From UHGV virus genome UHGV-0218015: 64,000 nt of DNA; one strand, written 5' to 3'. A program made the position numbers and the translations under genes. The number at the start of each line of letters is the position of its first letter. The stretch's first letter is position 1. Positions 6,614 to 51,387 of the stretch are shown piece after piece. Below the pieces are notes generated by a model that was given only the letters and a program-made list of their open reading frames with translations, was not told where the DNA came from and did not search any database. This DNA is from a virus.

Positions 6614-6624
6614 TGGGGTCTCCG

Positions 6625-8815: not shown

Positions 8816-9343
8816 ATGGCATATCGTGTCGATTTAACGAAAGCACCTAAACAAATTTTAGTAGACCGGATTAACTACGTATTTAGTCTATCCTATACTG
8901 CTGATAACATCGAGTTTAACGCAAACGGCGTTCAACCACTAACTTTAGCAGAACGCCAACGTTACGGACTAGAATCAAAGGTTGCTGCCGTCTTCCGTAA
9001 CGGCGTTGTCGGTAACCAGGAATTCATTTTAACTCGCGTTGATTTGGCAACGTTCTTGGCCGATGAACCGGTGAGTGTACCGAAAGGCGCAGTAACGTCC
9101 AGCGAAGAGTTGGCTGATTATATCGTCGCACAAACAGGGCTCGACCTGCGTGCCGACGACATTATGATTGAGCCGATTTCAGAGGAACTGGATTCTTATG
9201 ATGTTCGTCTCGTCCCGAATCATTTGTCTTTTAAAGGAACGATTCCGGTCGTATTTACTGATTCCACTCCACGCAAATTGGCGTCTCTTGTGACGAAATT
9301 GGCGTTGGATGGGTTCCGCCCAGGAGAATTAATCAATGTCTAA
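8816..9343 (+). CDS. hypothetical protein (175 aa)
   Basis: ORF 8 nt after previous stop, same-strand array. Confidence 0.5.
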   Translation: MAYRVDLTKAPKQILVDRINYVFSLSYTADNIEFNANGVQPLTLAERQRYGLESKVAAVFRNGVVGNQEFILTRVDLATFLADEPVSVPKGAVTSSEELADYIVAQTGLDLRADDIMIEPISEELDSYDVRLVPNHLSFKGTIPVVFTDSTPRKLASLVTKLALDGFRPGELINV

Positions 9344-13553: not shown

Positions 13554-13576
13554 TGATTAACCCCCGCGGAGTTTGT

Positions 13577-14215
13577 ATGTCTTTTGTAATTGATTTTGAA
13601 GTTGGTCATAGACAGAACTTACTCAACCTCGTCAGCTACTGTAATAACGGCAGTGTACGTAAAAAGCTTTCGGCTGAGAAAGTGGATGTTTCTTTAATGG
13701 GTGCACCCACACCGGAAGGTCGGTATCGGGTAAAGTTAACTAACCGCAACGATATTAACGACGCGGTGATGGTATCTTACACAAAACTTCAACTAAACGA
13801 CTTTCTTGAGATTCCCGGTAAGTATCTGGATTGGTTCGATTTCGAAAACGGCCAACCGAAAAATTACGATAAATGGGCAAAGTCCGCGAAAGCGTCAGTA
13901 GAGAAGATGTGTCAAGATCGTGGTATGATTTTGTCACGTGCATGGGACACTGGCTCGCAGTGCCATGTTGAGTATGATGACGATCTTGAGCGCTATGCGG
14001 TAGTTTACGAATGTGATTCGTTTATTTATAGCGCACGAAATCGTTTTATTCTACCGCTTCATATTGGGCAAATTATTACGAATAAAACCCTTGACGGACT
14101 TAACTACAACAACGAACTGGATAAGCGCCCTTTAGCTGACTTAGATGGTGAGTTGGATGTCTGGATGGGTAAAGCGTTACTCGAAACTGCCGTTTTAAGT
14201 AGTTTAGAAGAGTGA
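13577..14215 (+). CDS. hypothetical protein (about 212 aa; ATG 13577 preferred over track start 13553)
   Basis: GCGGAG RBS 6 nt upstream of ATG at 13577; ORF ends before terminator. Confidence 0.45.
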   Translation: MSFVIDFEVGHRQNLLNLVSYCNNGSVRKKLSAEKVDVSLMGAPTPEGRYRVKLTNRNDINDAVMVSYTKLQLNDFLEIPGKYLDWFDFENGQPKNYDKWAKSAKASVEKMCQDRGMILSRAWDTGSQCHVEYDDDLERYAVVYECDSFIYSARNRFILPLHIGQIITNKTLDGLNYNNELDKRPLADLDGELDVWMGKALLETAVLSSLEE

Positions 14216-28464: not shown

Positions 28465-28490
28465 TTTGATATTTAGCTGTAAAATGACTG

Positions 28491-28538
28491 TCTACCGCCC
28501 GATTCTATGGGCGGTAGATGTTTTTTATTTTTTTTTGA
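28491..28538 (+). terminator. rho-independent terminator
   Basis: Stem TCTACCGCCC / GATTCTAT / GGGCGGTAGA followed by TGTTTTTTATTTTTTTTT. Confidence 0.8.
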
Positions 28539-28552
28539 TCTGGGAGGCTATA

Positions 28553-29113
28553 GTGGCCACATACGTACCTGATTTAAGTCTGTCCTCAGCCGAATTGGTG
28601 GTCGCTTTAATCAACCACGATAACGGTTCACGGTTGTCTCTAAGCGAAATTCGTATTAGCAACACTATGGCAAACCTGTCCCCGACTACGTCGCGTCGTA
28701 ACACACTGACAGAGATTACAAAAATCAGGAAACCTGATGGTGCTTCTGTAGTTGTTTATTACGACCGCTTGGATGCGGACAAAGTGTTAGCGTCCGAACC
28801 TATTTTGATTTCGTTAGATGGTACCGAAGACAACCTTCGTGACATTTTAGGTGTTGTAAATGAATTCTGCGGAACGAACTTACAACCCGAGGATTTACAT
28901 GCTTCAGATATCACTTTAGGTAACGATCCTATTGCTGTCAACGTTGCTGACGATTCTCCAGCGTGGGTGAATGCGTTTATGGTGACGTTATTTGATAAAA
29001 CTGAACGGGCATTAGCAAACGAAGAAGATGCAATCTTCTGTATTGGTGACGATGCTGTTCTTACATTTGAGGTTCCAGATGGAGACTCCGCTGAAGAAAA
29101 CCCGGCTACATGA
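28553..29113 (+). CDS. tail-fibre-associated accessory protein (about 186 aa; GTG start after GGGAGG), paralog of 35204..35716
   Basis: VATYVPDLSLSSAELVVALINHDNG...VVYYDRL parallels MEKFTPDLSLTSLNMVISLVNHD...QIYYNRL; sits directly upstream of the fibre gene. Confidence 0.5.
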   Translation: MATYVPDLSLSSAELVVALINHDNGSRLSLSEIRISNTMANLSPTTSRRNTLTEITKIRKPDGASVVVYYDRLDADKVLASEPILISLDGTEDNLRDILGVVNEFCGTNLQPEDLHASDITLGNDPIAVNVADDSPAWVNAFMVTLFDKTERALANEEDAIFCIGDDAVLTFEVPDGDSAEENPAT

Positions 29114-29318
29114 ACTTGACGGTTTTTCTGGTAATGGAGGCCAAAGCAAACGTTTATCAAGACTTAGTAAACCCAGATCATGAGAACGCGGAGTTGGGCA
29201 TCACTTTCACGTTAGAAGATGATGGATTAAAACCAGTATAATAATCCGCTTATAAAAATGTTGGGGGAGGTGTTTTACCTTCCCAGATCTTTTAGCTCCA
29301 GATAGAGAATTAAATATC

Positions 29319-33758: not shown

Positions 33759-33762
33759 AGAT

Positions 33763-33790
33763 AGGGGGAGTAATCCCCCTAATTTAGTTT
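33763..33790 (+). terminator. putative terminator hairpin (weak T-run)
   Basis: Stem AGGGGGA / GTAA / TCCCCCT followed by AATTTAGTTT. Confidence 0.4.
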
Positions 33791-33799
33791 GGAGGATTT

Positions 33800-34345
33800 A
33801 TGGGGGTAGCATCCGGCTGGGTTGGAAGCTCAGCAAAGGCAGTAACCGGTCAGGAGTGGATGAGTGTGGCAGGTAATAAGCTTAAACTGAGCACGCCATT
33901 TAACATGTCGCAGATGGTCGGGCGTAGCGTAGAGGATCTTAAACTCGTTGTAGGCCGATCAACCTATGTTGTTTTGGTGCAGGCTACGAACACGCAGTGG
34001 GTTCCTATTACAAATACGTATGGGGGGTATTCGAACAACTCTACAACAACGGGTGCTGGTTCTACAGTATCGAATCGTGTGCAAACACAAAATGCGGCCG
34101 GTTCGGTGTCAGGTTCGATCTTGGGTTGTAGCGTCACACATCTTAGCCAAGTACAAAATACTGGTATTATCTACATGGCCCTAACCAATGGACCAAATCA
34201 GAATATTACGCTTTCGTTTAACGGAACGAAGATTACTTTTCTACCGTACTCCTACAGTAACGGCGTCCGGCGCTATGAGGCTAAGACGGCAACCAACTGG
34301 TTATTTAATCAGAACGGTGCAACAATTTCAATAAGTGTAGTCTAA
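33800..34345 (+). CDS. tail-fibre-module protein (181 aa), paralog of 34599..35105; possible distal adhesin
   Basis: N-terminus MGVASGWVGSSAKAVTGQEWMSVAGNKLKLSTPFNMSQMVGRS shared with the downstream paralog. Confidence 0.5.
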   Translation: MGVASGWVGSSAKAVTGQEWMSVAGNKLKLSTPFNMSQMVGRSVEDLKLVVGRSTYVVLVQATNTQWVPITNTYGGYSNNSTTTGAGSTVSNRVQTQNAAGSVSGSILGCSVTHLSQVQNTGIIYMALTNGPNQNITLSFNGTKITFLPYSYSNGVRRYEAKTATNWLFNQNGATISISVV

Positions 34346-34355
34346 GGACAGAAAG

Positions 34356-34586
34356 ATGTTAAGAAAAGTTTTACTGGGTTTCGCATTGCTTACAGTAAGT
34401 GGATGTCAACAACTACCCGAACCTGTATGTTACGGCACAGCTAAGCTGGGTAATGAAGAGACTACGATCAATATTTTCGACGTAAAAAAGCAGGGCAGAT
34501 ACACACTTTATAAAGCTGATCATCATTATAATTGGCGTTGGGTTGGGCGTGGTGCTTTCGATTCAATAACATGTAGAAAATCTTAA
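34356..34586 (+). CDS. small lipoprotein (76 aa), candidate Llp-like superinfection-exclusion or receptor-blocking lipoprotein
   Basis: Signal peptide with lipobox LTVSGC (MLRKVLLGFALLTVSG-C); located inside the fibre module. Confidence 0.55.
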   Translation: MLRKVLLGFALLTVSGCQQLPEPVCYGTAKLGNEETTINIFDVKKQGRYTLYKADHHYNWRWVGRGAFDSITCRKS

Positions 34587-34598
34587 CAGGAGATCGCG

Positions 34599-35105
34599 AT
34601 GGGGGGGGTAACCGGTTCGTGGGTCGGTTCTTCGGCCAAGAACGAAACGGGCGAACAATGGATGAGCGCTGCTGGTAGTAAATTAGGATTGGGTAGACCT
34701 TTTATGATGAGTCAAATGGTGGGACGATCTATGGGCTGTAAAATTGCAACCGCTGCATATAGCGATTCTTTAGGTAAGAAATGGGGCGCAGTAGGACCAA
34801 GCTGGCCGTTAAACCAGAAAAATCAGGGAACCATTCAAAACGCGGGTAACTGCGGGGTGGGAACTTTAGTAGGTATTGAGTTACAGTTAACGACGATAGT
34901 TGCCAACGCAAAGCCTACTTTAGCGGTTTACTTACAAGGAGGCAGAGCCTCTAACATTACCGTAAATTTAGGTGGTAACACCTGCGCGCTGGCCTATCAG
35001 CAGGTTATTAACGGACAGCATTATTACTGGACTAATAACATCAGCGCTGCGTTCCAAAACGTGATGAAATCGACAGGCGCACTGCGTGATTTGAGAATTA
35101 GCTAA
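34599..35105 (+). CDS. tail-fibre-module protein (168 aa), paralog of 33800..34345; start codon fused to a G8 tract
   Basis: MGGVTGSWVGSSAKNETGEQWMSAAGSKL...MSQMVGRS; ATG followed by GGGGGGG (34601-34608). Confidence 0.5.
   Translation: MGGVTGSWVGSSAKNETGEQWMSAAGSKLGLGRPFMMSQMVGRSMGCKIATAAYSDSLGKKWGAVGPSWPLNQKNQGTIQNAGNCGVGTLVGIELQLTTIVANAKPTLAVYLQGGRASNITVNLGGNTCALAYQQVINGQHYYWTNNISAAFQNVMKSTGALRDLRIS
34601..34608. repeat. G8 homopolymer inside the start of gene 34599
   Basis: ATGGGGGGGGTAACC read directly. Confidence 0.9.
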
Positions 35106-35203: not shown

Positions 35204-35716
35204 GTGGAAAAATTCACACCAGATTTATCACTAACTTCACTTAACATGGTTATTTCACTGGTTAACCATGACCTCCAACTTGACTTGCAAGAGAACGAGG
35301 TTGAAGTCAGTGACGTAAAAACCAGTGATGAAATGGATCGTGACTCCACTGCCATTGTAAAGATTAAACGTCCTGGAAACAGAACGTTGCAAATCTACTA
35401 CAACCGTTTAACCGCAGAGCGGTGGTTAAACCAACAACCTATTCTGGTAAAAGTAAGAGGTGAAGGGTTTAATGCACACGATCTTATCGAATCCGTCAAT
35501 GCCGTTTGTGGTGCTAACTTACAAACCGACGATTTAACCGACCAGTCGTTCACGGTAGGTAAAGACGCGGTAACGCTTAGCATCGCTCCGAATTCCATCG
35601 CTTATAAAGGACAGTTCTCCGTGGTGGTTTTCGGCCCAGATGAAACACCGTGTGGCATCGGTGATGATTCTGTCGTGTTGACGTTTGACAATAAAATCTT
35701 AACTTTTGGAGAGTAG
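35204..35716 (+). CDS. tail-fibre-associated accessory protein (170 aa, GTG start), paralog of 28553..29113
   Basis: TAGGAGGTAAACATAC-GTG RBS; sequence parallels the 28553 gene; directly upstream of the tailspike gene. Confidence 0.5.
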   Translation: MEKFTPDLSLTSLNMVISLVNHDLQLDLQENEVEVSDVKTSDEMDRDSTAIVKIKRPGNRTLQIYYNRLTAERWLNQQPILVKVRGEGFNAHDLIESVNAVCGANLQTDDLTDQSFTVGKDAVTLSIAPNSIAYKGQFSVVVFGPDETPCGIGDDSVVLTFDNKILTFGE

Positions 35717-35719
35717 TAG

Positions 35720-37840
35720 ATGAGTCAGCCAATTGGAAAGAAACGTATCCATGAACTCGACAATTTCTCTGGCGATCTCAAAGGTGCGTTAGTTCTTCTT
35801 TCTAAGGAAGAAAAAGAATATAAAATTGATATTGCAAAACTTCAGGGCACGACGGAGCCGGAGTATTACTTCGTGATTCCTATAGCCGGGCAATCTAATG
35901 CGATGAGTTATGGTGAAGGGTTGCCTCTACCGGCGACGTTGGACGCTCCCGATCCGCGAATTAAACAGATGGCGCGCCGTGCGAAGGTAACGCCTAATGG
36001 GGCTGATTGTAAATATAACGACGTCATTCCAGCGGATCACTGTCTGCACGACGTGCAAGATATGTCCAAATACTCGCATCCCAATGCCAATTTGAGCAAA
36101 GGTGAATACGGATGTGTGGGTCAAGGTCTACATATCGCGAAGCGTCTTCTCCCGTATATTCCTAAGAACGCCGGTATCTTACTAGTACCCTGCGCACGCG
36201 GCGGTTCTGCTTTCACGGGTGGTGCAGAAGGTACCTTCGATGAAGCCACAGGAGCCACTGAGTCGTCAATGCTATGGGGGGTGGAGAAACCGCTTTATAA
36301 AGATTTAGTTAGCCGGACCAAAAAAGCTCTAGAAGTTAATCCTAAAAATAAACTCTTGGCTGTAGTGTGGATGCAGGGAGAGTATGATCTGACTAAAGTA
36401 CAATACGCACAACAACCAGCGTTATTTAACGCAATGGTAGAGCGTTTCCGAACTGATCTCTCTGACCATCTCTCTCAGATGCCCGAGTACGACACCGCCG
36501 AAGTACCATGGATCTGCGGGGACACTACCTATTATTGGAAGGAAAAATATCCTGCCCAATATGAAACCGTATACGGTAATTATCGTAACAATGAACAAAA
36601 AAATATCTTTTTTGTTCCATTCATGTACGACGATAATGGCCAACGTGTACCGACTAATGATCCCACTGACGATCCTGATATCACTGGTGCGGCCTATTAC
36701 GGTGCTGCCTCCCGTACTGTTAAAAACTGGACGTCTGAAACAAGGAATAGCCATTTCAGTTCTTGGGCACGACGCGGTATTATCTCAGAGAGAATAGCTG
36801 CCGAGATATTATCAAGAACAGCGATTGGTGCAATGTTCCTGACGAAGAACGACACTAAGAGCTCCAAAGACAATAAGAATGTGGTAAGAAGCTATACCCC
36901 ATTAGTAGAGTCTGTGGGTTATAACGGACGTCGTGGGGATGGTTCCCTGAAAGGGCAAGGTTGGAACAATATCGTTGATTGTAACGTAACCGTGCAAGAT
37001 TCTGAGGATGGAAACGGGCATTTCGTCGAATTAAGAAAGGCTGTAAAGATGAAACCTTGGAATGTAACTAAGTCAATGACATCTGCTGCGGACATGATAC
37101 GTTACGGTGGACGTCTGACCGTTACTTTTAGACTAAAAGGTGATTTAGCAGCAGATCGTTTCGGATTAGGACTTTATTGGCGTATTTCCGCGTCCGACCT
37201 ACCTTCTGGTACTACATTTGCTGACGCTGGTGTGGCTGAGACGAACCCGTACCTAATGTCTTTTTTCTTACAGACCGACGCTACGAATCTTAATCTGATG
37301 CATCATAAAAAGCAAAATGCGAAATTAGGAACTTTTGGTGCGTACGATAATAACTGGCATACGCTTGAAATCATTTATCCTGGTGCCAATAAAACCACAG
37401 TCACACCTGTGCTGGACGGTACGAATGGTACTCCATTTGATCTGGCGAACAGTCCAGCTAAGACCGATTTGAACGAATTGGTTCTGACGGATATTACGAA
37501 AGTTACTGCCTATGATATCGATATTTCTAAGTTTGAGATCTCGGTCAATCGTGATTCTGGTAGCATAGTGTTATCTGAGGAAGATGTGTCGTCTTATGTG
37601 TATTTCCCACCCACCAACCGTGGCGGCCAACTTACTATTCCTGATCTAGAATATAGTGTGGGCAGAAATATTCAGATCGTGGCAAATAAGGCTGGTAAGA
37701 TCACCGTTAAACCGGAAAATTCAAACGTTCTCATCACTCCAAAGAGTGGGACAGAAGGTCTTGCCAAACCCATTGATACCAATGAAAGTATTACGCTAAT
37801 GCAGATTGGTTCCGATGGTAAAAGCTGGGTAGTTATTTAA
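35720..37840 (+). CDS. tailspike/tail fibre (706 aa) with putative SASA/SGNH-type carbohydrate esterase domain
   Basis: N-terminus MSQPIGKKRIHELDNFSGDLKGALVLLSKEEKEYK parallels the 1479-aa fibre N-terminus; FVIPIAGQSNAMSYGEG resembles the GQSN(M) active-site motif of sialate O-acetylesterase-like esterases. Confidence 0.6.
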   Translation: MSQPIGKKRIHELDNFSGDLKGALVLLSKEEKEYKIDIAKLQGTTEPEYYFVIPIAGQSNAMSYGEGLPLPATLDAPDPRIKQMARRAKVTPNGADCKYNDVIPADHCLHDVQDMSKYSHPNANLSKGEYGCVGQGLHIAKRLLPYIPKNAGILLVPCARGGSAFTGGAEGTFDEATGATESSMLWGVEKPLYKDLVSRTKKALEVNPKNKLLAVVWMQGEYDLTKVQYAQQPALFNAMVERFRTDLSDHLSQMPEYDTAEVPWICGDTTYYWKEKYPAQYETVYGNYRNNEQKNIFFVPFMYDDNGQRVPTNDPTDDPDITGAAYYGAASRTVKNWTSETRNSHFSSWARRGIISERIAAEILSRTAIGAMFLTKNDTKSSKDNKNVVRSYTPLVESVGYNGRRGDGSLKGQGWNNIVDCNVTVQDSEDGNGHFVELRKAVKMKPWNVTKSMTSAADMIRYGGRLTVTFRLKGDLAADRFGLGLYWRISASDLPSGTTFADAGVAETNPYLMSFFLQTDATNLNLMHHKKQNAKLGTFGAYDNNWHTLEIIYPGANKTTVTPVLDGTNGTPFDLANSPAKTDLNELVLTDITKVTAYDIDISKFEISVNRDSGSIVLSEEDVSSYVYFPPTNRGGQLTIPDLEYSVGRNIQIVANKAGKITVKPENSNVLITPKSGTEGLAKPIDTNESITLMQIGSDGKSWVVI

Positions 37841-42872: not shown

Positions 42873-43649
42873 ATGAAAACTATCGAGTTTAAGAATAGTA
42901 GTCTTTGGGCATACACGCACATCATTACGAGTTTCCTGAAAAACGTTACTCCACATCTTGCTTATCAGATTTATGGGAATGAGCTCACTATCGGTGGTTT
43001 TAACGAGGATGAATTAAAACGAGCAAAAGAGTTCATTGACGATGTTCTTCGTGGTGAAGCAACGTGTTTAGTTGCATGTTACGTTGCTAAAGACAAAGGA
43101 AGATTAAACGTCATGGCAATTTTCAGATCGTTCTCCGAAAAAGTATACGAAGTTGAGAAGATTAGTCATACCGTTTATATTGTTTACTTTAAACGTTCGG
43201 CGGAGAAAAACGCTGATAAAATTCTGGAGTATTTCGACTGTAACCCGGGGGAAGGTATGGATGTCTATACGCTCGGTTACGATGGGGTACCTCACCGGAA
43301 TAACCTTATTCGCATTGACGAACCTTTTTCAGTCAATGACGATTCCTCGCCTATAGAGATGGTTCTGGTACACAAAGATCGATTCGCGCATTACGATTCT
43401 GATACTATTCAACGTGTCCTGAACAACGTTAATATTCAGTTTTCACAAACCGAGCACTTAGTACGTGCATGTCTTAGGTCTAATGGCACAACATCATTTT
43501 TCTTCGAACGTCAAACTGTTTGGCATACTTATCTGGCTCTGATGGAAGAACTTGATAGGATCGAGCCAGTTCAGGTTGGTGCAAATTGCTTATATTGGAT
43601 AAAAACAAAAGGGTTCATGAATGAAAACGCTCAATTCAGATTTGCGTGA
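42873..43649 (+). CDS. hypothetical protein (258 aa)
   Basis: CCAAAAGGAAAATAAA-ATG RBS. Confidence 0.5.
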   Translation: MKTIEFKNSSLWAYTHIITSFLKNVTPHLAYQIYGNELTIGGFNEDELKRAKEFIDDVLRGEATCLVACYVAKDKGRLNVMAIFRSFSEKVYEVEKISHTVYIVYFKRSAEKNADKILEYFDCNPGEGMDVYTLGYDGVPHRNNLIRIDEPFSVNDDSSPIEMVLVHKDRFAHYDSDTIQRVLNNVNIQFSQTEHLVRACLRSNGTTSFFFERQTVWHTYLALMEELDRIEPVQVGANCLYWIKTKGFMNENAQFRFA

Positions 43650-44049
43650 TTACATCCGTCAGTACCCAGCCAGTATTCCTGTACTGGCGTCGCTTACGCT
43701 TTCAGGTACTGACGTTAACATCTTAACGGTGGAACAGTTCCACGAGATAATAAAAACCGCTTATAACTCCATTACCGCAACGTCAGTACGTAAACGTTGC
43801 GATTATCCCGACGGGGATTTCGGCACCGAGATGTTTACAGATTATGCGGTTGCGTTTCTGTTAGGGCGACACTGCCTCGATAAACTTAACACTGCTGTAG
43901 AAGGGGAAACAGTGACGGAAATAGTCAACGCTTGGCAGCAACGTATTCTGAGCGACGCTTACTGCCGACAGGCGTTAAAACGAATGTCCACAACGGCGAT
44001 TACAAACGACCAGCGTGCTTTAGAGTTCTTTAAGCACAATTACAGCTAA
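43621..44049 (+). CDS. hypothetical protein (142 aa), paralog of 44910..45341
   Basis: MKTLNSDLRDYIRQYPASIPVLASL parallels MFFVLNDEIRNYIRNNPIALGVLAGF. Confidence 0.5.
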   Translation: MKTLNSDLRDYIRQYPASIPVLASLTLSGTDVNILTVEQFHEIIKTAYNSITATSVRKRCDYPDGDFGTEMFTDYAVAFLLGRHCLDKLNTAVEGETVTEIVNAWQQRILSDAYCRQALKRMSTTAITNDQRALEFFKHNYS

Positions 44050-44909: not shown

Positions 44910-45341
44910 ATGTTTTTCGTATTAAATGATGAAATCCGTAACTACATTCGTAACAATCCGATTGCTTTGGGCGTTCTAGCAGGTTTCTGTCGTCCAAATA
45001 CTGACTTCGATTTAGTTAAGTTAGAAGAATATCAGGAAATTGTGAATACTAACTACATGCACATCTGTAGCTGGGGTAAACGTCCTCGCGAAGAGTACCC
45101 TGTAGGTGAGTTAGGTGACACTATGCATCGTGACCAGAATCTGATGCACGAATTCGTTGAATACACACTGGAAAATCTTAACTATCCGCTTCTTGTCGAC
45201 ACTGTACCAGAAATGGTTGACGAATGGTTAAGTCGTGTTTACAATGACCCTACTGCCAACAAGTTACTGAGTCAGATGTCACAAACTTCTCGTGACATCG
45301 ACACTCGTACGCTGATGTACTTAGCACACAACGTTCGCTAA
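44910..45341 (+). CDS. hypothetical protein (143 aa), paralog of 43621..44049
   Basis: CCTAAAGGAGTATTAAA-ATG; paralogous N-terminus. Confidence 0.5.
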   Translation: MFFVLNDEIRNYIRNNPIALGVLAGFCRPNTDFDLVKLEEYQEIVNTNYMHICSWGKRPREEYPVGELGDTMHRDQNLMHEFVEYTLENLNYPLLVDTVPEMVDEWLSRVYNDPTANKLLSQMSQTSRDIDTRTLMYLAHNVR

Positions 45342-45402: not shown

Positions 45403-45508
45403 GTTATTTTGACGCTGCTTTACTTACCTTCTACTCGACTATTCCTATGCTGGCTGAGGGATGTAAAACGACCTCTTAAACCTTTTTTACTTATTGTGAG
45501 TTAACGCG

Positions 45509-46357
45509 ATGTCTCTTACGTCAAAACAGAAACTGCTAAAACTCATCAACACTGAAAACAATATTGTTCCGCCATTGACCTTCAGTGATGTTGATATCGG
45601 CGAACCTACTGGTACTGGGGTTGATACCCAGGTGGTTCTGACTTCTAAACTCAAAGGCGATGAGTCTACTACTTTAACGGTGACTTACCATCGTCGTAAT
45701 TTGCCCGAATACCTAACAGGTGAGTTGGTATTCGGTAACGACGGTGTTGTAACCGCCTCAGATTTGCTTAACGCAATCAACGCAAAATACGATTTAAATA
45801 TTCTGCCATCGGATATCGTTGATGCGAAAGTTGAAGGTAAAACCCACCAACTTACCGCTAACGAGAAATCTTACGAGTGGTGTGGCGAAGTGACGCTTAC
45901 GCTACGCGATCCTATTGATCTGGCTAAATTGCTACCTGTTACTCAATTAGAAAACCTGGTAGAGTATCCGTCCACTAAGAAAGGTAACGCTGCGGTTTAT
46001 TCTTACCCAATTGACTTCACCGCAGAAAAAGATTACCTTGATCCAATTACCATCAACGGCACCGTAGACTTAGTAGAGTTAGCTACTAAACTGACTAACG
46101 TTGTTGATGAGAAATGGGTAAGCGTACCTAAGAACGCTGCTAATAACTTGTTCGGTGCTAAGGTTATCTACGATGGCCCTACCGCAGGTTTCGAAGGCGC
46201 AAATGCGAAGTACACGCGTGTGCTGGTACTCGCCCTAAGCGGTATGTGTTCTAACCTGACCGGTAAACTGTTAATTCACTTTAACGGAACCGATCGTCCG
46301 AAGTCGAAGATTGAATTAGCCAAGACTAATTCGGTCTTACCGGGATTCTTAGATTAA
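45509..46357 (+). CDS. member 1 of a four-gene paralog family (282 aa), unknown function, possibly virion-associated
   Basis: N-terminus SKQKLLKLINTEN...LTFSDVDIGEPTG parallels 46371, 49515 and 50113 products. Confidence 0.55.
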   Translation: MSLTSKQKLLKLINTENNIVPPLTFSDVDIGEPTGTGVDTQVVLTSKLKGDESTTLTVTYHRRNLPEYLTGELVFGNDGVVTASDLLNAINAKYDLNILPSDIVDAKVEGKTHQLTANEKSYEWCGEVTLTLRDPIDLAKLLPVTQLENLVEYPSTKKGNAAVYSYPIDFTAEKDYLDPITINGTVDLVELATKLTNVVDEKWVSVPKNAANNLFGAKVIYDGPTAGFEGANAKYTRVLVLALSGMCSNLTGKLLIHFNGTDRPKSKIELAKTNSVLPGFLD

Positions 46358-46370
46358 GAGGATTACAGTA

Positions 46371-46847
46371 ATGACCAGTCAAGAAACTATTTTCGACCTT
46401 ATTAAAAAGGCTAACCCAGACGCCGAGCTCGACACCGCCAAAGTCACATTGGGTGAGCCCGTCGTAAGTACCGGTACGTACAACACCGAAATTACGGTTG
46501 TGCCGGTTAAAAATCTCGGTTATGTTAATAAGCAAACGTTCCAGTATAACCGCATTGATGCAGGTTTGTATTTCCTCAACGTATTGCCGAAACTGTTAGT
46601 TGAGACAGCAACCACGACTGCGGACCTGCTGCCTGTAATTAACGAGCAGTATGGCTTAACCCTTACCGAAGACGATGTGTGGGTAGAGCAGGTTGGTGCG
46701 TTGCCGCTAGACGGCAGTGCAATCGAGCACGGTATTTTCTTCCGCCCCGAGTGTCTAACCTGGGTCGGTGGTTTTACAGTGCGTGTTGCGCGTAAACCGT
46801 CTGTCGAGACACCGCCAGCTAAGCCATCGCGCGCTAAGAAGAAATAA
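46371..46847 (+). CDS. member 2 of paralog family (158 aa)
   Basis: TIFDLIKKANPDAELDTAKVTLGEPVV parallels family N-termini; GAGGATTACAGTA-ATG. Confidence 0.55.
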   Translation: MTSQETIFDLIKKANPDAELDTAKVTLGEPVVSTGTYNTEITVVPVKNLGYVNKQTFQYNRIDAGLYFLNVLPKLLVETATTTADLLPVINEQYGLTLTEDDVWVEQVGALPLDGSAIEHGIFFRPECLTWVGGFTVRVARKPSVETPPAKPSRAKKK

Positions 46848-46852
46848 CTACA

Positions 46853-46886
46853 GGGTGGGGTAATCCCACCCTCTTTTCTTTTTTTG
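46853..46886 (+). terminator. rho-independent terminator
   Basis: Stem GGGTGGG / GTAA / TCCCACCC followed by TCTTTTCTTTTTTT. Confidence 0.8.
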
Positions 46887-46909
46887 TGTAAAAAGAGGAG
46901 TTAAAGAAA

Positions 46910-47500
46910 ATGGCCGAACGTTGGACTAAAGAAGGTATTATTGAATCAAAAACAGATTTAGAGGGTGGGTACGTCAATGACCCTGACGATAAAGGTGGGG
47001 AAACCTGTCACGGGGTAACACTGACAACTGCACGCGAATACGGGTACAAAGGAAGAATGAAAGATCTGACCCGTGCGCAAGCGTTTGATATTTACGATCG
47101 TGGTTGGTGGAAGAAACTTAAACTCGATGAGATTTTCGCTATCTCGCCGATACTCGCCGACAGGATGTTTGATTTTGGTATTAACTCTGGTCGTGTTAAC
47201 TGTGTGAAATCGTTACAACGTATTCTCAACGTTTTAAATAACGAAGGGAAACTTTACGCAGATATTGACACCGATGGTGGTATGGGACCTAAAACACTAG
47301 GTGCTCTGAATGCTTATCTGAATTACCGTAAAGGCGAGGGATTAGGCATCTTAATCTTTGCGTTAATCTCACATCAGGTAACCTACTACACGGAAATCTC
47401 CGAAAAGCGTAAGAAGAATGAAAAATTCGCTTACGGCTGGTACGGACGCGTGTACAGGGAAATGCCGGATTATGTAGTGAAGGCGGGGTTAGTAAAATGA
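46910..47500 (+). CDS. endolysin, glycoside hydrolase family 108 (lysozyme-like) with C-terminal peptidoglycan-binding domain
   Basis: LEGGYVNDPDDKGGETCHGVT matches the GH108 catalytic-site signature; AGAGGAGTTAAAGAAA-ATG RBS. Confidence 0.8.
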   Translation: MAERWTKEGIIESKTDLEGGYVNDPDDKGGETCHGVTLTTAREYGYKGRMKDLTRAQAFDIYDRGWWKKLKLDEIFAISPILADRMFDFGINSGRVNCVKSLQRILNVLNNEGKLYADIDTDGGMGPKTLGALNAYLNYRKGEGLGILIFALISHQVTYYTEISEKRKKNEKFAYGWYGRVYREMPDYVVKAGLVK

Positions 47501-47601
47501 ATTGGTTTGCTAAACTCTTAGCACTATTGTGGAAAGCGTTAACGTCTGGACGGAAACGTAAAGACGAAAAGCGTGGGTACGAATTTTTCTGGTTTCTATA
47601 A
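47497..47601 (+). CDS. small hydrophobic peptide (34 aa), candidate lysis accessory (holin-like or spanin-like) protein; not in ORF track
   Basis: ATG overlaps endolysin stop (ATGA); MNWFAKLLALLWKALTSGRKRKDEKRGYEFFWFL, amphipathic N-terminus and basic C-terminus. Confidence 0.3.
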   Translation: MNWFAKLLALLWKALTSGRKRKDEKRGYEFFWFL

Positions 47602-47616
47602 GGGAAGGTGTGGGTA

Positions 47617-48282
47617 ATGGAGAAGCTTCAATATAAACGTTTAGACAATAAGTGGTTTGTATTAACGGAGGATTACCATTATCCGTTTACGTTACGCGAG
47701 ATTTATCACGACCACGTACACTTAGACCGTGCGGTTTATTTAACGGGTGTATTGCCTGACACGCAACTGTGGTTAACAGCACCGAAAGGGTTCGTTACCG
47801 ATTTAGCGTCAATTCCTGATCACCTCCAGGGAATTTTCCATCCTGACGGACCGTGGGCACCTGCGGCCTGTATTCACGACTTACTCTATCAAAAATGCAA
47901 CACGGAGCGTAGCTATCCCATGACACCGGGTGGTAACGTTTCGCGTTTCATCGATAAAGAGTTCTCTGACTTAACTTTCCTGCGTATTATGCAGTCGTTG
48001 GAAATCTCGCCTTATATCTGCCAAACATTTTATAAGGCCGTTGTTGAATTCGGCTGGGATGCCTACGTAGATCCTAATGCAAAGCCATCCTACAGCACTA
48101 ACGCGTTTCGTACGTTAGATTACAATCGAAACTATTTATTCGTTCGCGAGTTTAAGGAACCTGCAATCCCTGACCACGAACGTATTGATATCACCACAGA
48201 TTGTCCCGTTAATGTCAAATACCTGAACATCAAACGGGCTTTTCTGTCTGGGAGGGAAGATGTTTCATCCAAATCCGAGTAA
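47617..48282 (+). CDS. hypothetical protein (about 221 aa; ATG 47617 preferred over track start 47608)
   Basis: AGGGAAGG RBS before ATG 47617. Confidence 0.5.
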   Translation: MEKLQYKRLDNKWFVLTEDYHYPFTLREIYHDHVHLDRAVYLTGVLPDTQLWLTAPKGFVTDLASIPDHLQGIFHPDGPWAPAACIHDLLYQKCNTERSYPMTPGGNVSRFIDKEFSDLTFLRIMQSLEISPYICQTFYKAVVEFGWDAYVDPNAKPSYSTNAFRTLDYNRNYLFVREFKEPAIPDHERIDITTDCPVNVKYLNIKRAFLSGREDVSSKSE

Positions 48283-48775
48283 CTTTAAACTCAGAGAGTT
48301 AGTACCACAGTCCTATATTGCCAAATACGGCGATTCCGCAATTCGGTTTATGAATCCGTTGTTAATGATCTCCCTACAACAGATTCGTAATCGTTTCGGC
48401 AGAATGGTGATTAACTCAACTGCCGCACAACAGCGCGGACTAAGAACCTTAGATTTCTTTATTAATCAAGAAAAGCCTAAGGGTGGTAGTTATAAACAAC
48501 GTGCGTTGCAGCTTTACGCCGATTCAGGAAGTCAACACAAATTCGGTAACGCCATTGATGCAACGTTGTTGGATAGCACCGTAAAACAGGTTCACGACTA
48601 TATCGCTGCTAACCCTGACGAGTTTCCGTTCATTCACTTTATTGAATGTGACATCAGTTGGTTGCACATTGACGTTCGTAACCAGCCTAACATTACTTTC
48701 TGGTCACCAAATCGTGGTACTGTGAAAGTTGTTAAGCAAAAACCAATCGATTGGAGCGCCTTAGTCGAGATTTAA
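48260..48775 (+). CDS. putative peptidase M15-family cell-wall hydrolase (171 aa)
   Basis: SQHKFGNAIDA (H-x-x-G-x-A-x-D zinc-binding motif) and downstream WLHID histidine typical of M15 peptidases. Confidence 0.5.
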   Translation: MFHPNPSNFKLRELVPQSYIAKYGDSAIRFMNPLLMISLQQIRNRFGRMVINSTAAQQRGLRTLDFFINQEKPKGGSYKQRALQLYADSGSQHKFGNAIDATLLDSTVKQVHDYIAANPDEFPFIHFIECDISWLHIDVRNQPNITFWSPNRGTVKVVKQKPIDWSALVEI

Positions 48776-48860
48776 CTATTTCTAAGGTGTTTATACCTTA
48801 TTTTGTATAAAGACGCTCAGAATGCGTTTTACGCACGATTTGGCGGTTAAAATGAATATA

Positions 48861-48895
48861 CCCTACTCCCGATAAGGAGTAGGGTAGTTTTTATT
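48861..48895. terminator. terminator hairpin between convergent genes
   Basis: Stem CCCTACTCC / CGATAA / GGAGTAGGG followed by TAGTTTTTATT. Confidence 0.7.
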
Positions 48896-49382
48896 GTTCC
48901 GCAGGATGGAGCATTGTTCCAGTGTCAGACGCTACACCTTCTTTACAGTGGAAGAAAGTAATGCCTTTACCATCACCCGTTTTATATTCTAAAGTAGAAT
49001 ACGCAAACGTTGGCGTTTTTGAAAGTAAGCCATTTACACGATAGTAACGTTGTCCTGTGATAGGATCAATATTCCCATTAACTTTACCTAATAAATCTTT
49101 ATAAAGTTGCGGCGACTCAATCTTGCCGTTTGGCCAAGTGGCTACCCAGTTAGCACCAGTATCGAGTACAGTTACTGACCCTAGCATTATATTAGTCGAG
49201 CTGACGACAGGTTTGTAATTTGCAAAATCTTGCTCTGCACCCATACAGGTGTAAATAACCATATCATGTGGCTCCACCGGCACAGTCGAGAATTGGCCGT
49301 TACCATTCGGTTGTAAGGCACATCCTGCCAATGAAAAAACACCAACCATAACGATAAGAAAACGTTTTATCATACTCTTCAC
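48891..49382 (-). CDS. lipoprotein (163 aa), isolated - strand gene in a + strand region (moron-like)
   Basis: Signal peptide plus lipobox: MKSMIKRFLIVMVGVFSLAG-C; own upstream intergenic region (49383-49514) and downstream terminator. Confidence 0.7.
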   Translation of the reverse strand: MKSMIKRFLIVMVGVFSLAGCALQPNGNGQFSTVPVEPHDMVIYTCMGAEQDFANYKPVVSSTNIMLGSVTVLDTGANWVATWPNGKIESPQLYKDLLGKVNGNIDPITGQRYYRVNGLLSKTPTFAYSTLEYKTGDGKGITFFHCKEGVASDTGTMLHPAEQ

Positions 49383-49514
49383 CTTTTATAAAAAAGTTAA
49401 AGTTAATTAATTTTACAAGCAACCCTTCTGCCGCCTGTCATAACTATTAACACCGCTTCTATAATCCGAACAATACTATGCAAACCACCCATACTACTTA
49501 CGAGGTAAAAAACA

Positions 49515-50045
49515 ATGGCTAAAACTTTTCAACAGCAGCTTATCGAACTTATTAACACTAAAAACAGCTCTCTGAGCTCCGCTCTCACCGTAGCTGATGT
49601 TGACTTTAGTGCTGTCGCTGACTTCACCGGAGAAGCTGGCCGCAACACTAAAATTACTCTGACCGCCAAGGCAGAAAGCCAGAACTTCAAAGGCGAGAAA
49701 GAATTCCACTATACTCGTCTTTCCTGCGACATCGTTGGTGAAGTTGAAGTAACTGCACCTACTACCGATTTCGATTCACCAACGAAAATCCTGGCAAAAG
49801 TTAACGCAGCCATGGCTGAGAAAGGGTACACCGATGACGAGTTCGGTGAAAACGACCTGCAAACTATTTCCCGTGAAGAAGAAGGCAAAACCATTTACGT
49901 AGTAACTGTTGTGGCTGGACACCTGAAGTTCCTGCCAGGTACTGTTGCAACGTATAAAGTTACTCCTCCGGCTATTGAGAAAGTAGTATTGAACGGTTTG
50001 GAAGGTGAACTGGATGGCTTCACCGCACCAGCGCCTAAAGAGTAA
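49515..50045 (+). CDS. member 3 of paralog family (176 aa)
   Basis: FQQQLIELINTKNSSLSSALTVADVDF...NTKITLTAKAESQNFKGEKEFHYTRL parallels 50113 product. Confidence 0.55.
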   Translation: MAKTFQQQLIELINTKNSSLSSALTVADVDFSAVADFTGEAGRNTKITLTAKAESQNFKGEKEFHYTRLSCDIVGEVEVTAPTTDFDSPTKILAKVNAAMAEKGYTDDEFGENDLQTISREEEGKTIYVVTVVAGHLKFLPGTVATYKVTPPAIEKVVLNGLEGELDGFTAPAPKE

Positions 50046-50052
50046 TTGATTC

Positions 50053-50090
50053 GGGGGGGGGTGGTAACCTCCCCCGATATTTCTTTAACT
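50053..50090 (+). terminator. terminator-like hairpin containing a G9 tract
   Basis: GGGGGGGGGTGGTAACCTCCCCC hairpin followed by GATATTTCTTTAACTTTCATTTT. Confidence 0.5.
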
Positions 50091-50112
50091 TTCATTTTAA
50101 GGATTTAAGATA

Positions 50113-50643
50113 ATGGCAGCTACTAACCAGATGATGTTAGTTGCGCTTTATAATGCTGCTAACACAGAGCTACCGCATCAGGTCACTGATAAAGAGGTAA
50201 CTTTTGGTCAACCTGTCGCTCTTGAAAAGGGCGATAAAAATACCAAAGTTACCATGACCGCACGTACAGAGTCTGAAAATTTTAAAGGCGCAATCGAACT
50301 GCATTACGATCGTCTGGAACCTGGCGTTATCGGACGCATTGAGGTAACGGACGATTTGGCTCTCTGGACTGGAGAAAACGAACTACGCGACCGATTACAG
50401 TTCTACATCAATAAAGTAAAACCTGACGACTCTATCGCGCCTGGTGACGTTGAGTACACCACCGAAGACCAGAAAGACGAACACGATAGCGTCACTCTGC
50501 GTACGGTAACTTGTACCGTTACTGAAAAGAACCTCCGTTATAAACCGGGTGTAATGGCAACTTTCGTAATTACGCCGAAAGTTGTTGATAATCGTATTGA
50601 CCTGGCCACCACCGACGGTGAACTTGACGGCTTTACTGCTTAA
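50113..50643 (+). CDS. member 4 of paralog family (176 aa)
   Basis: NQMMLVALYNAANTELPHQVTDKEVTF...NTKVTMTARTESENFKGAIELHYDRL. Confidence 0.55.
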   Translation: MAATNQMMLVALYNAANTELPHQVTDKEVTFGQPVALEKGDKNTKVTMTARTESENFKGAIELHYDRLEPGVIGRIEVTDDLALWTGENELRDRLQFYINKVKPDDSIAPGDVEYTTEDQKDEHDSVTLRTVTCTVTEKNLRYKPGVMATFVITPKVVDNRIDLATTDGELDGFTA

Positions 50644-50667: not shown

Positions 50668-50720
50668 AAAATAATAAGTTTACCTACCTCCTTTACGGAG
50701 GTAGGTACTTTTTTATTTTA
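50668..50720. terminator. bidirectional terminator between convergent + and - gene blocks
   Basis: Stem TACCTACCTCC / TTTAC / GGAGGTAGGTA flanked by an A-run upstream and TTTTTTATTTTA downstream. Confidence 0.8.
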
Positions 50721-51387
50721 TCCCCATTTCCAAAGCGTACGCTCGGATGGTATCATAATCACGCCGCTCGGCTAAAAGCCGAAGCTCTTTTTTCTGCTCG
50801 GTTTTCTGCCCATGCAATTTCTGATCACGTTTCACAATCGCTGCCATCAGTTCTTTGCATTGTTCCAACGTGAACGGTTCTATTCGTGCATTCGACGTAT
50901 CCAACCAATATTCCGGGGCGGTTTCAGACTGAATATACTGACTTAACATCTGTCGCGATGCGTCGTCTGTTTGGAAATAACACCCATTTAACTTAATGGG
51001 TGCATAACGCTGTTCCTCATAAAGACGTTCCATCTCTATCATGATTTTCTGAACATCTTGATAGATATAACGTGCAGTTGATCGAACGTTGTTTCGTATT
51101 TCTTCTAAATCAATCTCAAGAACATCAGCGATAAATTCTTTCGCTTTCTGTAGAGTGAAATTAGCCTCAATCTCCGACATATCGTAACTACGCATCTGTT
51201 CGATTGCGGCCTTATCTTCCAACCCATCGATTAATTTGTAGTGTAGAAGCGCACAAAAACCCGCACGACCACGATCCTCGTTGCCAATTCGTTCCATGTA
51301 ATTACCGTGGCGATCGATTGGAAGCCCTCGTGAGAAATAACGTTGACGTATTTCCTCTTTCGTTAAGCCTTCGTCAATAACAGACAT
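50713..51387 (-). CDS. hypothetical protein (224 aa), last gene of the rSAM/Cys-rich operon
   Basis: - strand ORF overlapping upstream gene by 25 nt; ends at bidirectional terminator. Confidence 0.5.
   Translation of the reverse strand: MSVIDEGLTKEEIRQRYFSRGLPIDRHGNYMERIGNEDRGRAGFCALLHYKLIDGLEDKAAIEQMRSYDMSEIEANFTLQKAKEFIADVLEIDLEEIRNNVRSTARYIYQDVQKIMIEMERLYEEQRYAPIKLNGCYFQTDDASRQMLSQYIQSETAPEYWLDTSNARIEPFTLEQCKELMAAIVKRDQKLHGQKTEQKKELRLLAERRDYDTIRAYALEMGIK

What the first reader, a model, noticed from the sequence alone, without database searches (positions are those of the whole stretch)
45509..50643. Four-member paralog family in two tandem pairs flanking the lysis and lipoprotein genes
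Genes 45509, 46371, 49515 and 50113 encode related 158-282-aa proteins (conserved N-terminal L(I/L)xL(I/Y)Nxxxxxxxxxxx(V/L)T(F/L)...(D/G)xNTK(I/V)T(L/M)TA(K/R)xES(Q/E)NFKG). All have strong RBSs and terminators, consistent with abundant, possibly virion-decorating or host-interaction proteins that have diversified by duplication.
Basis: seen in the sequence. Interest (0 to 1): 0.4.

Follow-up and report, generated by a model that had tools for sequence, protein, structure and literature searches.

The report
Jumbo-phage DUF7941 virion filament proteins
The four related genes are real and belong to an already described family (Pfam DUF7941) of abundant virion proteins of nucleus-forming jumbo phages, recently proposed to chain head-to-tail into filaments on the baseplate rim; the window holds seven members, not four, so this is an ordinary new example of a known kind.

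Summary
The four ORFs exist as described, and all pass the Pfam gathering score for DUF7941 (180, 105, 46 and 37 bits against a cut-off of 27). Only the second pair (49515/50113) is a true tandem duplicate (34% identity). The first pair (45509/46371) consists of two old, distinct lineages.

The family is larger than reported. Three more members lie at 8816, 28553 and 35204, each next to baseplate or tail-fibre genes.

The window comes from an SPN3US-like chimallivirus with exact local synteny. The family is SPN3US "paralog family B". 49515/50113 are co-orthologues of gp160, one of the most abundant SPN3US virion proteins.

A 2026 Goslar preprint proposes head-to-tail DUF7941 filaments. I add three points:
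- A conserved LxGF linker or C-terminal peptide. It is absent from 46371 and present twice in 45509.
- Natural 2-3-module fusions with that peptide at each junction.
- A similar peptide at the N-termini of the neighbouring fibres.

Location on the virion is unresolved in the literature: head by SPN3US proteomics, baseplate by phiKZ cryo-EM. Verdict: new member of a known kind, low to moderate interest.

The parts
45509..46357 (+). Full-length DUF7941 protein (282 aa). Layout: N-terminal module ~1-135; linker ~136-165 with a variant motif (IDLAKLLPVTQLENLVEYP); C-terminal domain to ~259; then an extra 23-aa tail ending KIELAKTNSVLPGFLD, a second copy of the linker motif. Orthologue of SPN3US gp138.
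   Evidence: Pfam PF25613 180.3 bits, positions 5-275 of 276. 44% identity to the SPN3US 115393-116190 product. The C-terminal half matches PDB 9xqd PHIKZ127, E 4e-7. In the AF2 model the N-terminal module has pLDDT ~75-89, and the C-terminal domain is below 50. Motifs.
46371..46847 (+). N-terminal module only (158 aa). It lacks the LxGF linker motif and ends in a basic Pro/Lys tail (KPSVETPPAKPSRAKKK). Best match is the N-terminal half of SPN3US gp141. Probably co-transcribed with 45509 (13-nt gap).
   Evidence: Pfam PF25613 104.7 bits, HMM positions 7-155 only. 38% identity to SPN3US gp141 residues 7-162. C-terminus read. RBS AAGAGGA.
49515..50045 (+). Single-module DUF7941 protein (176 aa) of the gp160/PHROG 4862 subfamily, with a C-terminal KVVLNGLEGELDGFTAPAPKE peptide.
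50113..50643 (+). Tandem duplicate of 49515 (176 aa, 34% identity), ending RIDLATTDGELDGFTA.
   Evidence: BLASTP E 1e-25. Pfam 37.0 bits; phrog_4862 E 5.5e-35. 39.2% identity to SPN3US gp160. Both copies are kept in related ~224-kb contigs.
8816..9343 (+). Fifth family member (175 aa), ending KLALDGFRPGELINV. It lies between homologues of phiKZ baseplate wedge gp128 (6613-8808) and of the rim-band protein gp139 (9336-10223, start overlapping its stop). It is the likely counterpart of baseplate-bound phiKZ gp127 and SPN3US gp83.
   Evidence: Pfam 51.1 bits; phrog_2935 E 2e-48. Neighbours: PHIKZ128 E 1.8e-82 and PHIKZ139 E 2.6e-34. Goslar gp32 30% identity, E 1e-41.
28553..29113 (+). Sixth family member (186 aa from GTG 28553; the mechanical ORF starts at TTG 28466). 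Orthologue of SPN3US gp122. It sits directly upstream of tail-fibre genes.
   Evidence: Pfam 64.4 bits. 46% identity to the SPN3US 105819-106352 product. RBS GGGAGG lies 5 nt before the GTG, a terminator-like hairpin lies upstream, and the N-terminus then matches gp122.
35204..35716 (+). Seventh family member (170 aa), a paralogue of 28553 (34% identity). It ends 3 nt before the 706-aa SASA-esterase/DUF6645 fibre-like gene.
   Evidence: Pfam 51.6 bits. BLASTP vs 28466 E 2e-30. RBS AGGAGG.
46852..46872 (+). Terminator-like hairpin plus T-run after the first pair.
   Evidence: Terminator-like sites in the region: 18 found against 5.6 +/- 2.5 in shuffles.
50051..50077 (+). Terminator-like hairpin between 49515 and 50113.
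50681..50707 (.). Bidirectional terminator-like hairpin shared by 50113 and the convergent DUF4376 gene.
46910..49382 (.). Genes between the two pairs (context, not family members): GH108 + PG_binding_3 endolysin (46910-47500 +); DUF1353 (47608-48282 +); homologue of SPN3US gp158 (48260-48775 +); lipobox ORF (48891-49382 -).
   Evidence: Same order in SPN3US and in related contigs. 77.8% identity to gp158.
35720..37840 (+). Fibre or tailspike-like protein. Its N-terminus (GKKRIHELDNFSGD...EKEYK) carries an ELDxF peptide resembling the DUF7941 linker. It is a candidate cargo of the adaptor encoded at 35204.
   Evidence: Pfam SASA + DUF6645. N-terminal motif shared with 29319-33758, with SPN3US gp123 and with a relic ORF. 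Same gene junction in 25 phage records.
29079..29183 (+). 34-codon relic ORF (METPLKKTRLHELDGFSGNGG...) overlapping the end of 28553-29113. It looks like the remnant 5' end of a displaced fibre gene.
   Evidence: Three-frame translation and motif scan.

Best explanation
The four genes, and three more in the window, encode DUF7941 proteins. This is the virion-protein family of nucleus-forming jumbo phages (Chimalliviridae) known as SPN3US 'paralog family B'.

Each protein has a ~140-residue N-terminal globular module followed by a short conserved linker peptide. The family consensus for the linker is ...L(S/A)x6-7 LDGF(T/V)YP.

Most likely mechanism: the linker of one subunit (plus the C-terminal domain, where present) binds the N-terminal module of the next. 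The subunits then string head-to-tail into flexible filaments rooted at the outer rim of the baseplate.

Under this model the window's parts would work as follows.
- 8816 lies beside the gp128 and gp139 homologues and is the rim-bound starter, like phiKZ gp127.
- 49515 and 50113 (gp160/gp23-like, module plus linker) are the bulk chain subunits.
- 45509 (module, linker, C-terminal domain, second linker) is a gp22-like subunit that could bind two partners.
- 46371 (module without linker) can be bound but cannot extend the chain, so it would act as a cap.
- 28553 and 35204 are adaptors for the fibre genes that follow them.

Shown here: family membership; the fold match to phiKZ gp127; synteny; the conserved linker; natural multi-module fusions.

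Taken from papers on homologues: abundance in virions; filament formation by Goslar gp22; the position of gp127 on the baseplate.

Inferred: the role assigned to each window gene; binding of the linker in trans; filament formation in this phage.
For: Family membership.
- All seven ORFs pass the Pfam PF25613 gathering score.
- An independent 178-module HMM gives E 1e-25 to 1e-38 for these seven only.
- hhalign between subfamilies gives 97.2% probability, E 2.8e-11.

Fold.
- The AF2 model of 49515 has pLDDT 93.1.
- 52 BFVD matches (E <= 1e-3) were found; every named hit among the 50 listed is a jumbo-phage protein, mostly annotated virion or tail-fibre protein.
- The 45509 model shows the same order of secondary-structure elements.

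Genomic context.
- The window encodes homologues of phiKZ gp128, gp129 and gp139.
- It is collinear with SPN3US from the array through the endolysin to the radical-SAM genes.
- Goslar gp22 and gp23 also sit beside a GH108-type lysin.

Literature.
- One gp127 per star lobe sits at the end of the gp139 band (PMC13250141).
- Goslar gp22 and gp23 are at ~580 and ~2140 copies. gp22 forms filaments in negative stain. AF3 predicts head-to-tail dimers (preprint).
- SPN3US gp160 and gp141 are highly abundant, with the mapping checked by exact mass.

Linker.
- The C-terminal GELDGF is the most conserved stretch of the tail in 37 gp160-like sequences.
- hhalign aligns it with the linker between the N- and C-terminal domains of full-length members.
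- It is part of the family consensus.

Natural fusions.
- A profile search of 1.84 billion representatives found 2302 family members at E <= 1e-3.
- Of the top 148 hits, 60 matched the profile in two or more stretches with a period of ~165-175 aa. Two of these 60 are the Mycoplasma proteins later set aside as composition-biased.
- Pfam confirmed 2-3 modules in the five phage-type proteins tested, and L[DTAE]GF appeared at junctions in five of the six sequences read.
- Separate genes here are fused elsewhere, which argues for direct end-to-end contact.

Adaptors.
- The gp122-like gene is followed, with overlapping or abutting stop and start, by a fibre gene with a conserved N-terminus in 25 phage records.
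Against: - SPN3US proteomics found family B proteins in DNA-filled tailless particles and therefore called them head proteins, possibly ejected (PMC5105663 and PMC5694885). The Goslar preprint does not discuss this.
- No DUF7941 density was seen on the Goslar baseplate. Only one copy per star lobe is modelled in phiKZ.
- Trans-binding of the linker rests on AlphaFold 3 predictions by others. I could not run a multimer prediction.
- My monomer model places the tail with pLDDT 73-88, so cis-packing is not excluded.
- The C-terminal domain of 45509 was not modelled with confidence.
- Abundance and virion presence are untested for this phage.
- The role assigned to each gene is inference from sequence features alone.
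Confidence: 0.6

Rival explanations
1. They are head-associated proteins, packaged with or attached to the capsid and possibly ejected into the host, as proposed for SPN3US paralog family B. They would not be baseplate filaments.
For: All family B members were detected in purified tailless, DNA-filled particles of an SPN3US gp64 mutant, whereas known tail proteins were absent. gp141 and gp160 were labelled 'Head ejection?'. 49515/50113 and 46371 are the counterparts of gp160 and gp141.
Against: [quoted passage not shown] Three of the seven window members sit beside baseplate or fibre genes. Many relatives fuse the module to fibre, glycosidase or LRR domains. None of the SPN3US family B members is listed among the eight proteins cleaved by the prohead protease. 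Self-assembling filaments could co-purify with heads in CsCl gradients (inference from the in-vitro filaments of gp22).
Confidence: 0.2
2. They are low-copy structural or adaptor pieces of the peripheral baseplate that link fibres to the rim. They would not form long polymers.
For: phiKZ shows only one gp127 per star lobe. gp122-like members are paired with fibre genes. 8816 is embedded among baseplate genes.
Against: Very high copy numbers of gp22/gp23 in Goslar, and high spectral counts of gp141/gp160 in SPN3US. gp22 forms filaments in vitro. Proteins with 2-3 tandem modules are frequent.
Confidence: 0.15
3. They are capsid decoration proteins or lysis accessory proteins. The first comes from the reader's word 'virion-decorating', the second from the position beside the lysis genes.
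For: Only the neighbourhood of the endolysin and the high abundance of homologues.
Against: The papers read on the phiKZ and Goslar virions place no DUF7941 protein on the capsid. The only modelled one, gp127, is in the baseplate rim, and in Goslar the DUF7941 proteins are listed among the unmodelled ones. The four proteins show no signal peptide or membrane segment (sequences; GRAVY -0.1 to -0.5). The same gene order is kept in SPN3US, where the homologues are virion components.
Confidence: 0.03

Closest known systems
Goslar gp22 / gp23 (DUF7941 proteins; bioRxiv 10.64898/2026.04.21.720040)
   Same: An adjacent pair of one full-length protein (module, linker, C-terminal domain) and one short protein, next to a GH108-type lysin. 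45509 matches gp22 (E 3e-12). 49515 and 50113 match gp23 best among the Goslar proteins (E 3e-7 and 1e-8). gp23 also ends with an ...NVADGF... peptide.
   Different: Identity is low (about 22-35%). In Goslar the two genes are divergently oriented. Here the short partner of the full-length protein (46371) lacks the linker peptide, while the gp23-like genes form a separate duplicated pair 2.7 kb downstream. 45509 carries an extra C-terminal LPGF tail.
SPN3US paralog family B (gp83, gp122, gp138-154, gp160; PMC5694885, PMC5105663)
   Same: Exact synteny. 45509 is 44% identical to gp138. 46371 matches the N-terminal half of gp141 (38%). 49515 and 50113 are 48% and 39% identical to gp160. 28553 is 46% identical to gp122. 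8816 is the lone member beside baseplate genes.
   Different: SPN3US has 17-18 array genes (about 20 kb) where this phage has two (1.3 kb). It has one gp160 gene where this phage has two. The array difference (~18.6 kb) is of the same order as the genome-size difference (240.4 kb against about 224.6 kb). The SPN3US authors assigned the family to the head.
phiKZ gp126 / gp127 (PDB 9XQD; PMC13250141)
   Different: About 20% identity. The preprint lists only three DUF7941 proteins for phiKZ. Only residues 1-150 of gp127 are modelled, so the linker contact has not been seen experimentally.

Membership tests
Pfam PF25613 DUF7941 (SPN3US paralog family B) | Sequence match to the family profile above the curated gathering score (27 bits) | tested here: met
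   The four genes score 180.3, 104.7, 46.3 and 37.0 bits. The three extra members score 51.1, 64.4 and 51.6 bits.
Pfam PF25613 DUF7941 (SPN3US paralog family B) | N-terminal globular module with the fold of phiKZ gp127 residues 1-150 | tested here: met
Pfam PF25613 DUF7941 (SPN3US paralog family B) | Linker peptide after the module (family consensus LDGF(T/V)YP), said to dock on the next protomer | tested here: inconclusive
   The motif is present in 49515, 50113 and 8816. It occurs twice, in variant form, in 45509. It is degenerate (LTF) in 28553 and 35204, and absent in 46371. Docking itself could not be tested.
Pfam PF25613 DUF7941 (SPN3US paralog family B) | Encoded by a chimallivirus (phiKZ-like nucleus-forming jumbo phage) | tested here: met
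   Best relatives are SPN3US-like phages; Seoulvirus belongs to Chimalliviridae. The window holds homologues of phiKZ gp128, gp129 and gp139.
Pfam PF25613 DUF7941 (SPN3US paralog family B) | Present in purified virions, some members at high copy number | not testable with these tools
   Known only for homologues in SPN3US and Goslar.
Goslar-type head-to-tail DUF7941 filament | Self-association into filaments through contact between linker/C-terminal domain and N-terminal module | not testable with these tools
   No multimer prediction is available here. Indirect support: 2-3 modules in single polypeptides, confirmed by Pfam in the five phage-type proteins tested, with L[DTAE]GF at junctions in five of the six sequences read. 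The tail of 49515 is modelled at pLDDT 73-88.

The most novel reading that the evidence does not exclude
The short ELDGF-type peptide may be a general 'plug' for the DUF7941 N-terminal module 'socket'. The same peptide class would then do three jobs. It would extend filaments, as the C-termini of 49515, 50113, 8816 and 45509. It would attach interchangeable receptor-binding proteins, through the KKxRxHELDxFxGD N-termini of the fibres that follow the gp122-like adaptors 28553 and 35204. It might also root the chain on the wedge protein, since the gp128 homologue ends ...NDLEGFTLDQLPK. Members without a plug, such as 46371, would cap chains, and members with two, such as 45509, would branch them. 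This would be a modular plug-and-socket system for swapping host-range determinants in jumbo phages.
Probability: 0.2. Interest if true: 0.6.

Novelty: new member of a known kind. Interest (0 to 1): 0.3.

Why it matters
The family is one of the largest paralogue expansions known in any phage, and it accounts for thousands of protein copies per virion. Its role was proposed only in 2026, and its location is contradictory in the literature: head by SPN3US mutant proteomics, baseplate rim by phiKZ cryo-EM.

This phage lineage carries a pared-down set. The window holds seven genes, with two where SPN3US has 17-18. Several distinct architectures are represented: module only; module plus linker; and full length with a second linker.

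That makes it a simpler system for asking which parts are needed for chain start, extension, capping and fibre attachment. In itself the finding is an ordinary annotation: new members of a curated Pfam family.

Tried and rejected
- The AF2 model of 45509 was confident only for the N-terminal module. The alignment was too shallow for the C-terminal domain.
- Two top multi-copy hits of the profile search are Mycoplasma 'BspA family' surface proteins. Their scores are almost all composition bias (106-109 of 114-123 bits), and they have no Pfam DUF7941 hit. I therefore do not accept them as family members. 49515 also has a sub-threshold Spiralin hit (23.4 bits against a 25-bit cut-off). A paper reports DUF7941 in some Spiroplasma proteins via InterPro. 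The claim that the module is exclusive to chimalliviruses is thus doubtful but unresolved.
- ORF 13553-14215 was a weak eighth candidate (E 7e-4, two fragments). It has no Pfam hit and was rejected.
- Sigma-70-like promoter scans were no better than shuffles (10 found against 11.2 expected). A TATG motif seen upstream of 45509 and 49515 was not pursued.
- A lysis-related role was considered because of the neighbourhood. It was rejected for lack of membrane or signal features and because the homologues are virion proteins.

Full report
**Observation.**

The four ORFs are present exactly as listed, all on the + strand.

Pairwise BLASTP shows the relationships are unequal:
- 49515 and 50113 are clear paralogues (34% identity end to end, E 1e-25).
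- 45509 resembles 49515 only over about 80 N-terminal residues (E 2e-5).
- 46371 has no significant pairwise match to the other three.

Profiles remove the doubt.
- All four exceed the curated threshold of Pfam PF25613 (DUF7941), with 180, 105, 46 and 37 bits against 27.
- All four hit the PHROG 'virion structural protein' families 1037, 2935 or 3589. The second pair is best described by phrog_4862.
- A profile-profile comparison of 37 gp160-like sequences with 13 full-length members gives 97.2% probability and E 2.8e-11 over 161 columns.

Terminator-like hairpins follow 46371, 49515 and 50113 but not 45509. That gene lies 13 nt from 46371 and has a weak RBS.

The genes between the pairs are as described:
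- a GH108/PG_binding_3 endolysin;
- a DUF1353 protein;
- a protein matching PHROG 894, annotated 'endolysin';
- a minus-strand ORF with a lipobox.

**The family is larger than four.**

An HMM of the four picked up three more ORFs. All three pass the Pfam threshold:
- 8816-9343;
- 28466-29113, whose real start is GTG 28553 behind a GGGAGG RBS;
- 35204-35716.

A second, independent HMM built from 178 modules of unrelated representatives finds exactly these seven (E 1e-25 to 1e-38). A weak eighth candidate (13553-14215) has no Pfam hit and was rejected.

**Whose genome is this?**

There is no close DNA relative in the phage collection. The proteins match SPN3US-like jumbo phages at 44-51% identity, and Seoulvirus is a genus of Chimalliviridae.

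Gene order from the array through the endolysin, DUF1353, gp158, the minus-strand gene, gp160 and DUF4376 to the radical-SAM genes is identical to SPN3US.

The window also encodes homologues of three phiKZ baseplate proteins:
- gp128: E 2e-82;
- gp129: E 2e-41;
- gp139: E 3e-34.

Contigs of about 224 kb, from metagenome assemblies and assemblies of public sequencing runs, carry 84-98% identical orthologues in the same 2+2 layout. Homologues also carry names from Salmonella, Shigella and E. coli isolate assemblies.

**What the family is.**

It is SPN3US 'paralog family B' (PMC5694885). I mapped the published gene numbers to coordinates by count and confirmed the mapping by exact mass: gp160 18.5 kDa, gp141 32.6 kDa, gp143 31.9 kDa.

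The window genes correspond as follows:
- 45509 is the gp138 orthologue (44%).
- 46371 matches the N-terminal half of gp141 (38%).
- 49515 and 50113 are co-orthologues of gp160 (48% and 39%).
- 28553 is the gp122 orthologue (46%).

gp141 and gp160 are among the most abundant SPN3US virion proteins.

SPN3US has 17-18 array genes where this phage has two, and one gp160 gene where this phage has two. The first pair is therefore a remnant or minimal array of two old lineages. Only the second pair is a local duplication.

**Structure.**

AlphaFold2 on a 37-sequence alignment gave a confident model of 49515 (pLDDT 93.1, pTM 0.78).
- Foldseek against the PDB found nothing.
- Foldseek against predicted viral structures returned 52 hits at E <= 1e-3. 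Every named hit among the 50 listed is a jumbo-phage protein, and several are 640-830 residues long or annotated as tail fibre.

The 45509 model is reliable only for the N-terminal module, which has the same order of helices and strands. Its C-terminal half matches gp127 by sequence (E 4e-7).

**Literature on mechanism.**

The phiKZ atlas places one gp127 per star lobe at the end of a band of gp139 dimers that starts at wedge protein gp128 (PMC13250141).

The Goslar preprint (10.64898/2026.04.21.720040) reports the following:
- ten DUF7941 proteins in Goslar;
- about 580 copies of gp22 (module, linker, C-terminal domain) and about 2140 of gp23 (module, linker) per virion;
- filaments of purified gp22 in negative stain;
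- AF3 head-to-tail dimers in which the linker of one protomer binds the N-terminal module of the next.

The authors propose a baseplate-anchored 'fiber cloud'. In Goslar, gp22 and gp23 lie next to a GH108-type lysin, as the first pair does here. gp23 is the best Goslar match of 49515 and 50113.

**What I can add.**

(a) The linker is a recognisable conserved peptide.
- In gp160-like proteins the C-terminal K..L....GELDGF is nearly invariant.
- hhalign aligns it with the linker between the N- and C-terminal domains of full-length members.
- The family-wide consensus ends ...TTLDGFTYP.

(b) Its distribution among the window genes is informative.
- It is present in 49515, 50113 and 8816.
- It occurs twice in 45509: in the linker, and in an extra C-terminal tail that SPN3US gp138 lacks.
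- It is absent in 46371.

(c) Natural fusions exist.
- A profile search of 1.84 billion cluster representatives found 2302 relatives.
- Of the best 148, 60 matched the profile in two or more stretches per polypeptide at a period of ~165-175 residues. Two of these are the rejected Mycoplasma hits.
- Pfam confirmed 2-3 modules in the five phage-type proteins tested, and L[DTAE]GF sits at junctions in five of the six sequences read.
- This is a Rosetta-stone type argument that separately encoded modules contact each other end to end.

(d) The gp122-like members are followed directly by fibre genes.
- The fibre products begin KKxR(L/I)H(E/D)L(D/H)x(F/Y)xGD...EK(E/D)YK.
- The same junction occurs in 25 phage records.
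- The ELDxF core resembles the linker peptide, and the gp128 homologue ends ...NDLEGFTLD.
- That these are docking peptides for the module is a hypothesis only.

**Unresolved conflict.**

SPN3US family B proteins were found in tailless, DNA-filled particles and were therefore assigned to the head. The Goslar preprint does not mention this.

I favour the baseplate-filament model for three reasons:
- the cryo-EM position of gp127;
- the fold match;
- the gene neighbourhoods of three window members.

Free filaments co-purifying with heads would reconcile the data, but that is inference.

I give 0.6 to the filament model as a whole. Family membership as virion proteins I regard as close to certain (about 0.95).

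**Verdict.**

The genes are new members of a curated, recently characterised family. Interest is low to moderate.

Noticed in passing
window 43621-44049 and 44910-45341 (+): Another paralogue pair just upstream of the finding: 142 and 143 aa, 33% identity, E 6e-27, both phrog_8484 of unknown function. They are separated by a 253-aa gene. In some related contigs the intervening region differs (a 373-aa gene).
   Followed up: partly
window 29319-35105 (+): T-even-type receptor-binding genes inside a chimallivirus. A 1479-aa fibre carries a T4 gp34 trimerisation domain and an S74 intramolecular chaperone. It is followed by two gp38-like adhesins (33800-34345, 34599-35105; Gp38_N 67-73 bits). SPN3US has a 156-aa plus a 1005-aa protein at this position, so the module looks exchanged.
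   Followed up: partly
window 29079-29183 (+): A 34-codon ORF overlapping the end of the DUF7941 gene encodes METPLKKTRLHELDGFSGNGG... This is the conserved fibre N-terminus followed by an early stop. It is probably the remnant of the fibre gene displaced when the T-even-like fibre was acquired.
   Followed up: partly
window 28466-28552: The mechanical ORF start (TTG 28466) is almost certainly wrong. A terminator-like hairpin with a T-run (about 28487-28530) and a GGGAGG RBS precede GTG 28553. The product from that start then begins like SPN3US gp122.
   Followed up: yes
window 48260-48775 (+): The 171-aa protein matching PHROG 894 (annotated 'endolysin') is 78% identical to SPN3US gp158. gp158 is reported as a low-copy virion protein absent from tailless particles. 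So this may be a tail-associated cell-wall enzyme rather than part of the lysis cassette. It is also the only stretch with DNA-level similarity (75%) to phages STsAS and SPAsTU.
   Followed up: partly
window 50713-51387 (-): The DUF4376 gene next to the second pair is far more divergent between close relatives (66% identity) than its neighbours (79-98%). 50113 (84%) and 49515 (91%) are also below the first pair (96-98%). This may be a local hotspot of host-range variation.
   Followed up: partly
L001 (SPN3US 121518-131656): The SPN3US array contains a three-gene cassette repeated three times. Each cassette has a 470-498-aa DUF7941 protein ending NGELDGF/NGELNGF, then a ~330-aa protein, then a ~300-aa protein.
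   Followed up: no
P0155, P0165 (Mycoplasma); window 49515-50045: The family profile hits repeats in Mycoplasma 'BspA family' surface proteins, but with almost all of the score flagged as bias and no Pfam DUF7941 hit. 49515 has a near-threshold Spiralin hit. A 2026 paper reports DUF7941 in Spiroplasma proteins. A distant link between the phage module and mollicute surface-protein repeats is possible but unproven.
   Followed up: partly
window 48891-49382 (-): Minus-strand ORF with a signal peptide and lipobox (…FSLAGC…), phrog_9559. It is conserved at the same position in SPN3US and relatives. Its role is unknown; a spanin or superinfection-exclusion role is a guess.
   Followed up: no
window 45440-45450 and 49474-49480: A TATG motif lies about 60 and 40 nt upstream of 45509 and 49515, in the two long intergenic regions. 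Neither 46371 nor 50113 has one. I recall TATG as a phiKZ late-promoter element, but I did not test this.
   Followed up: no
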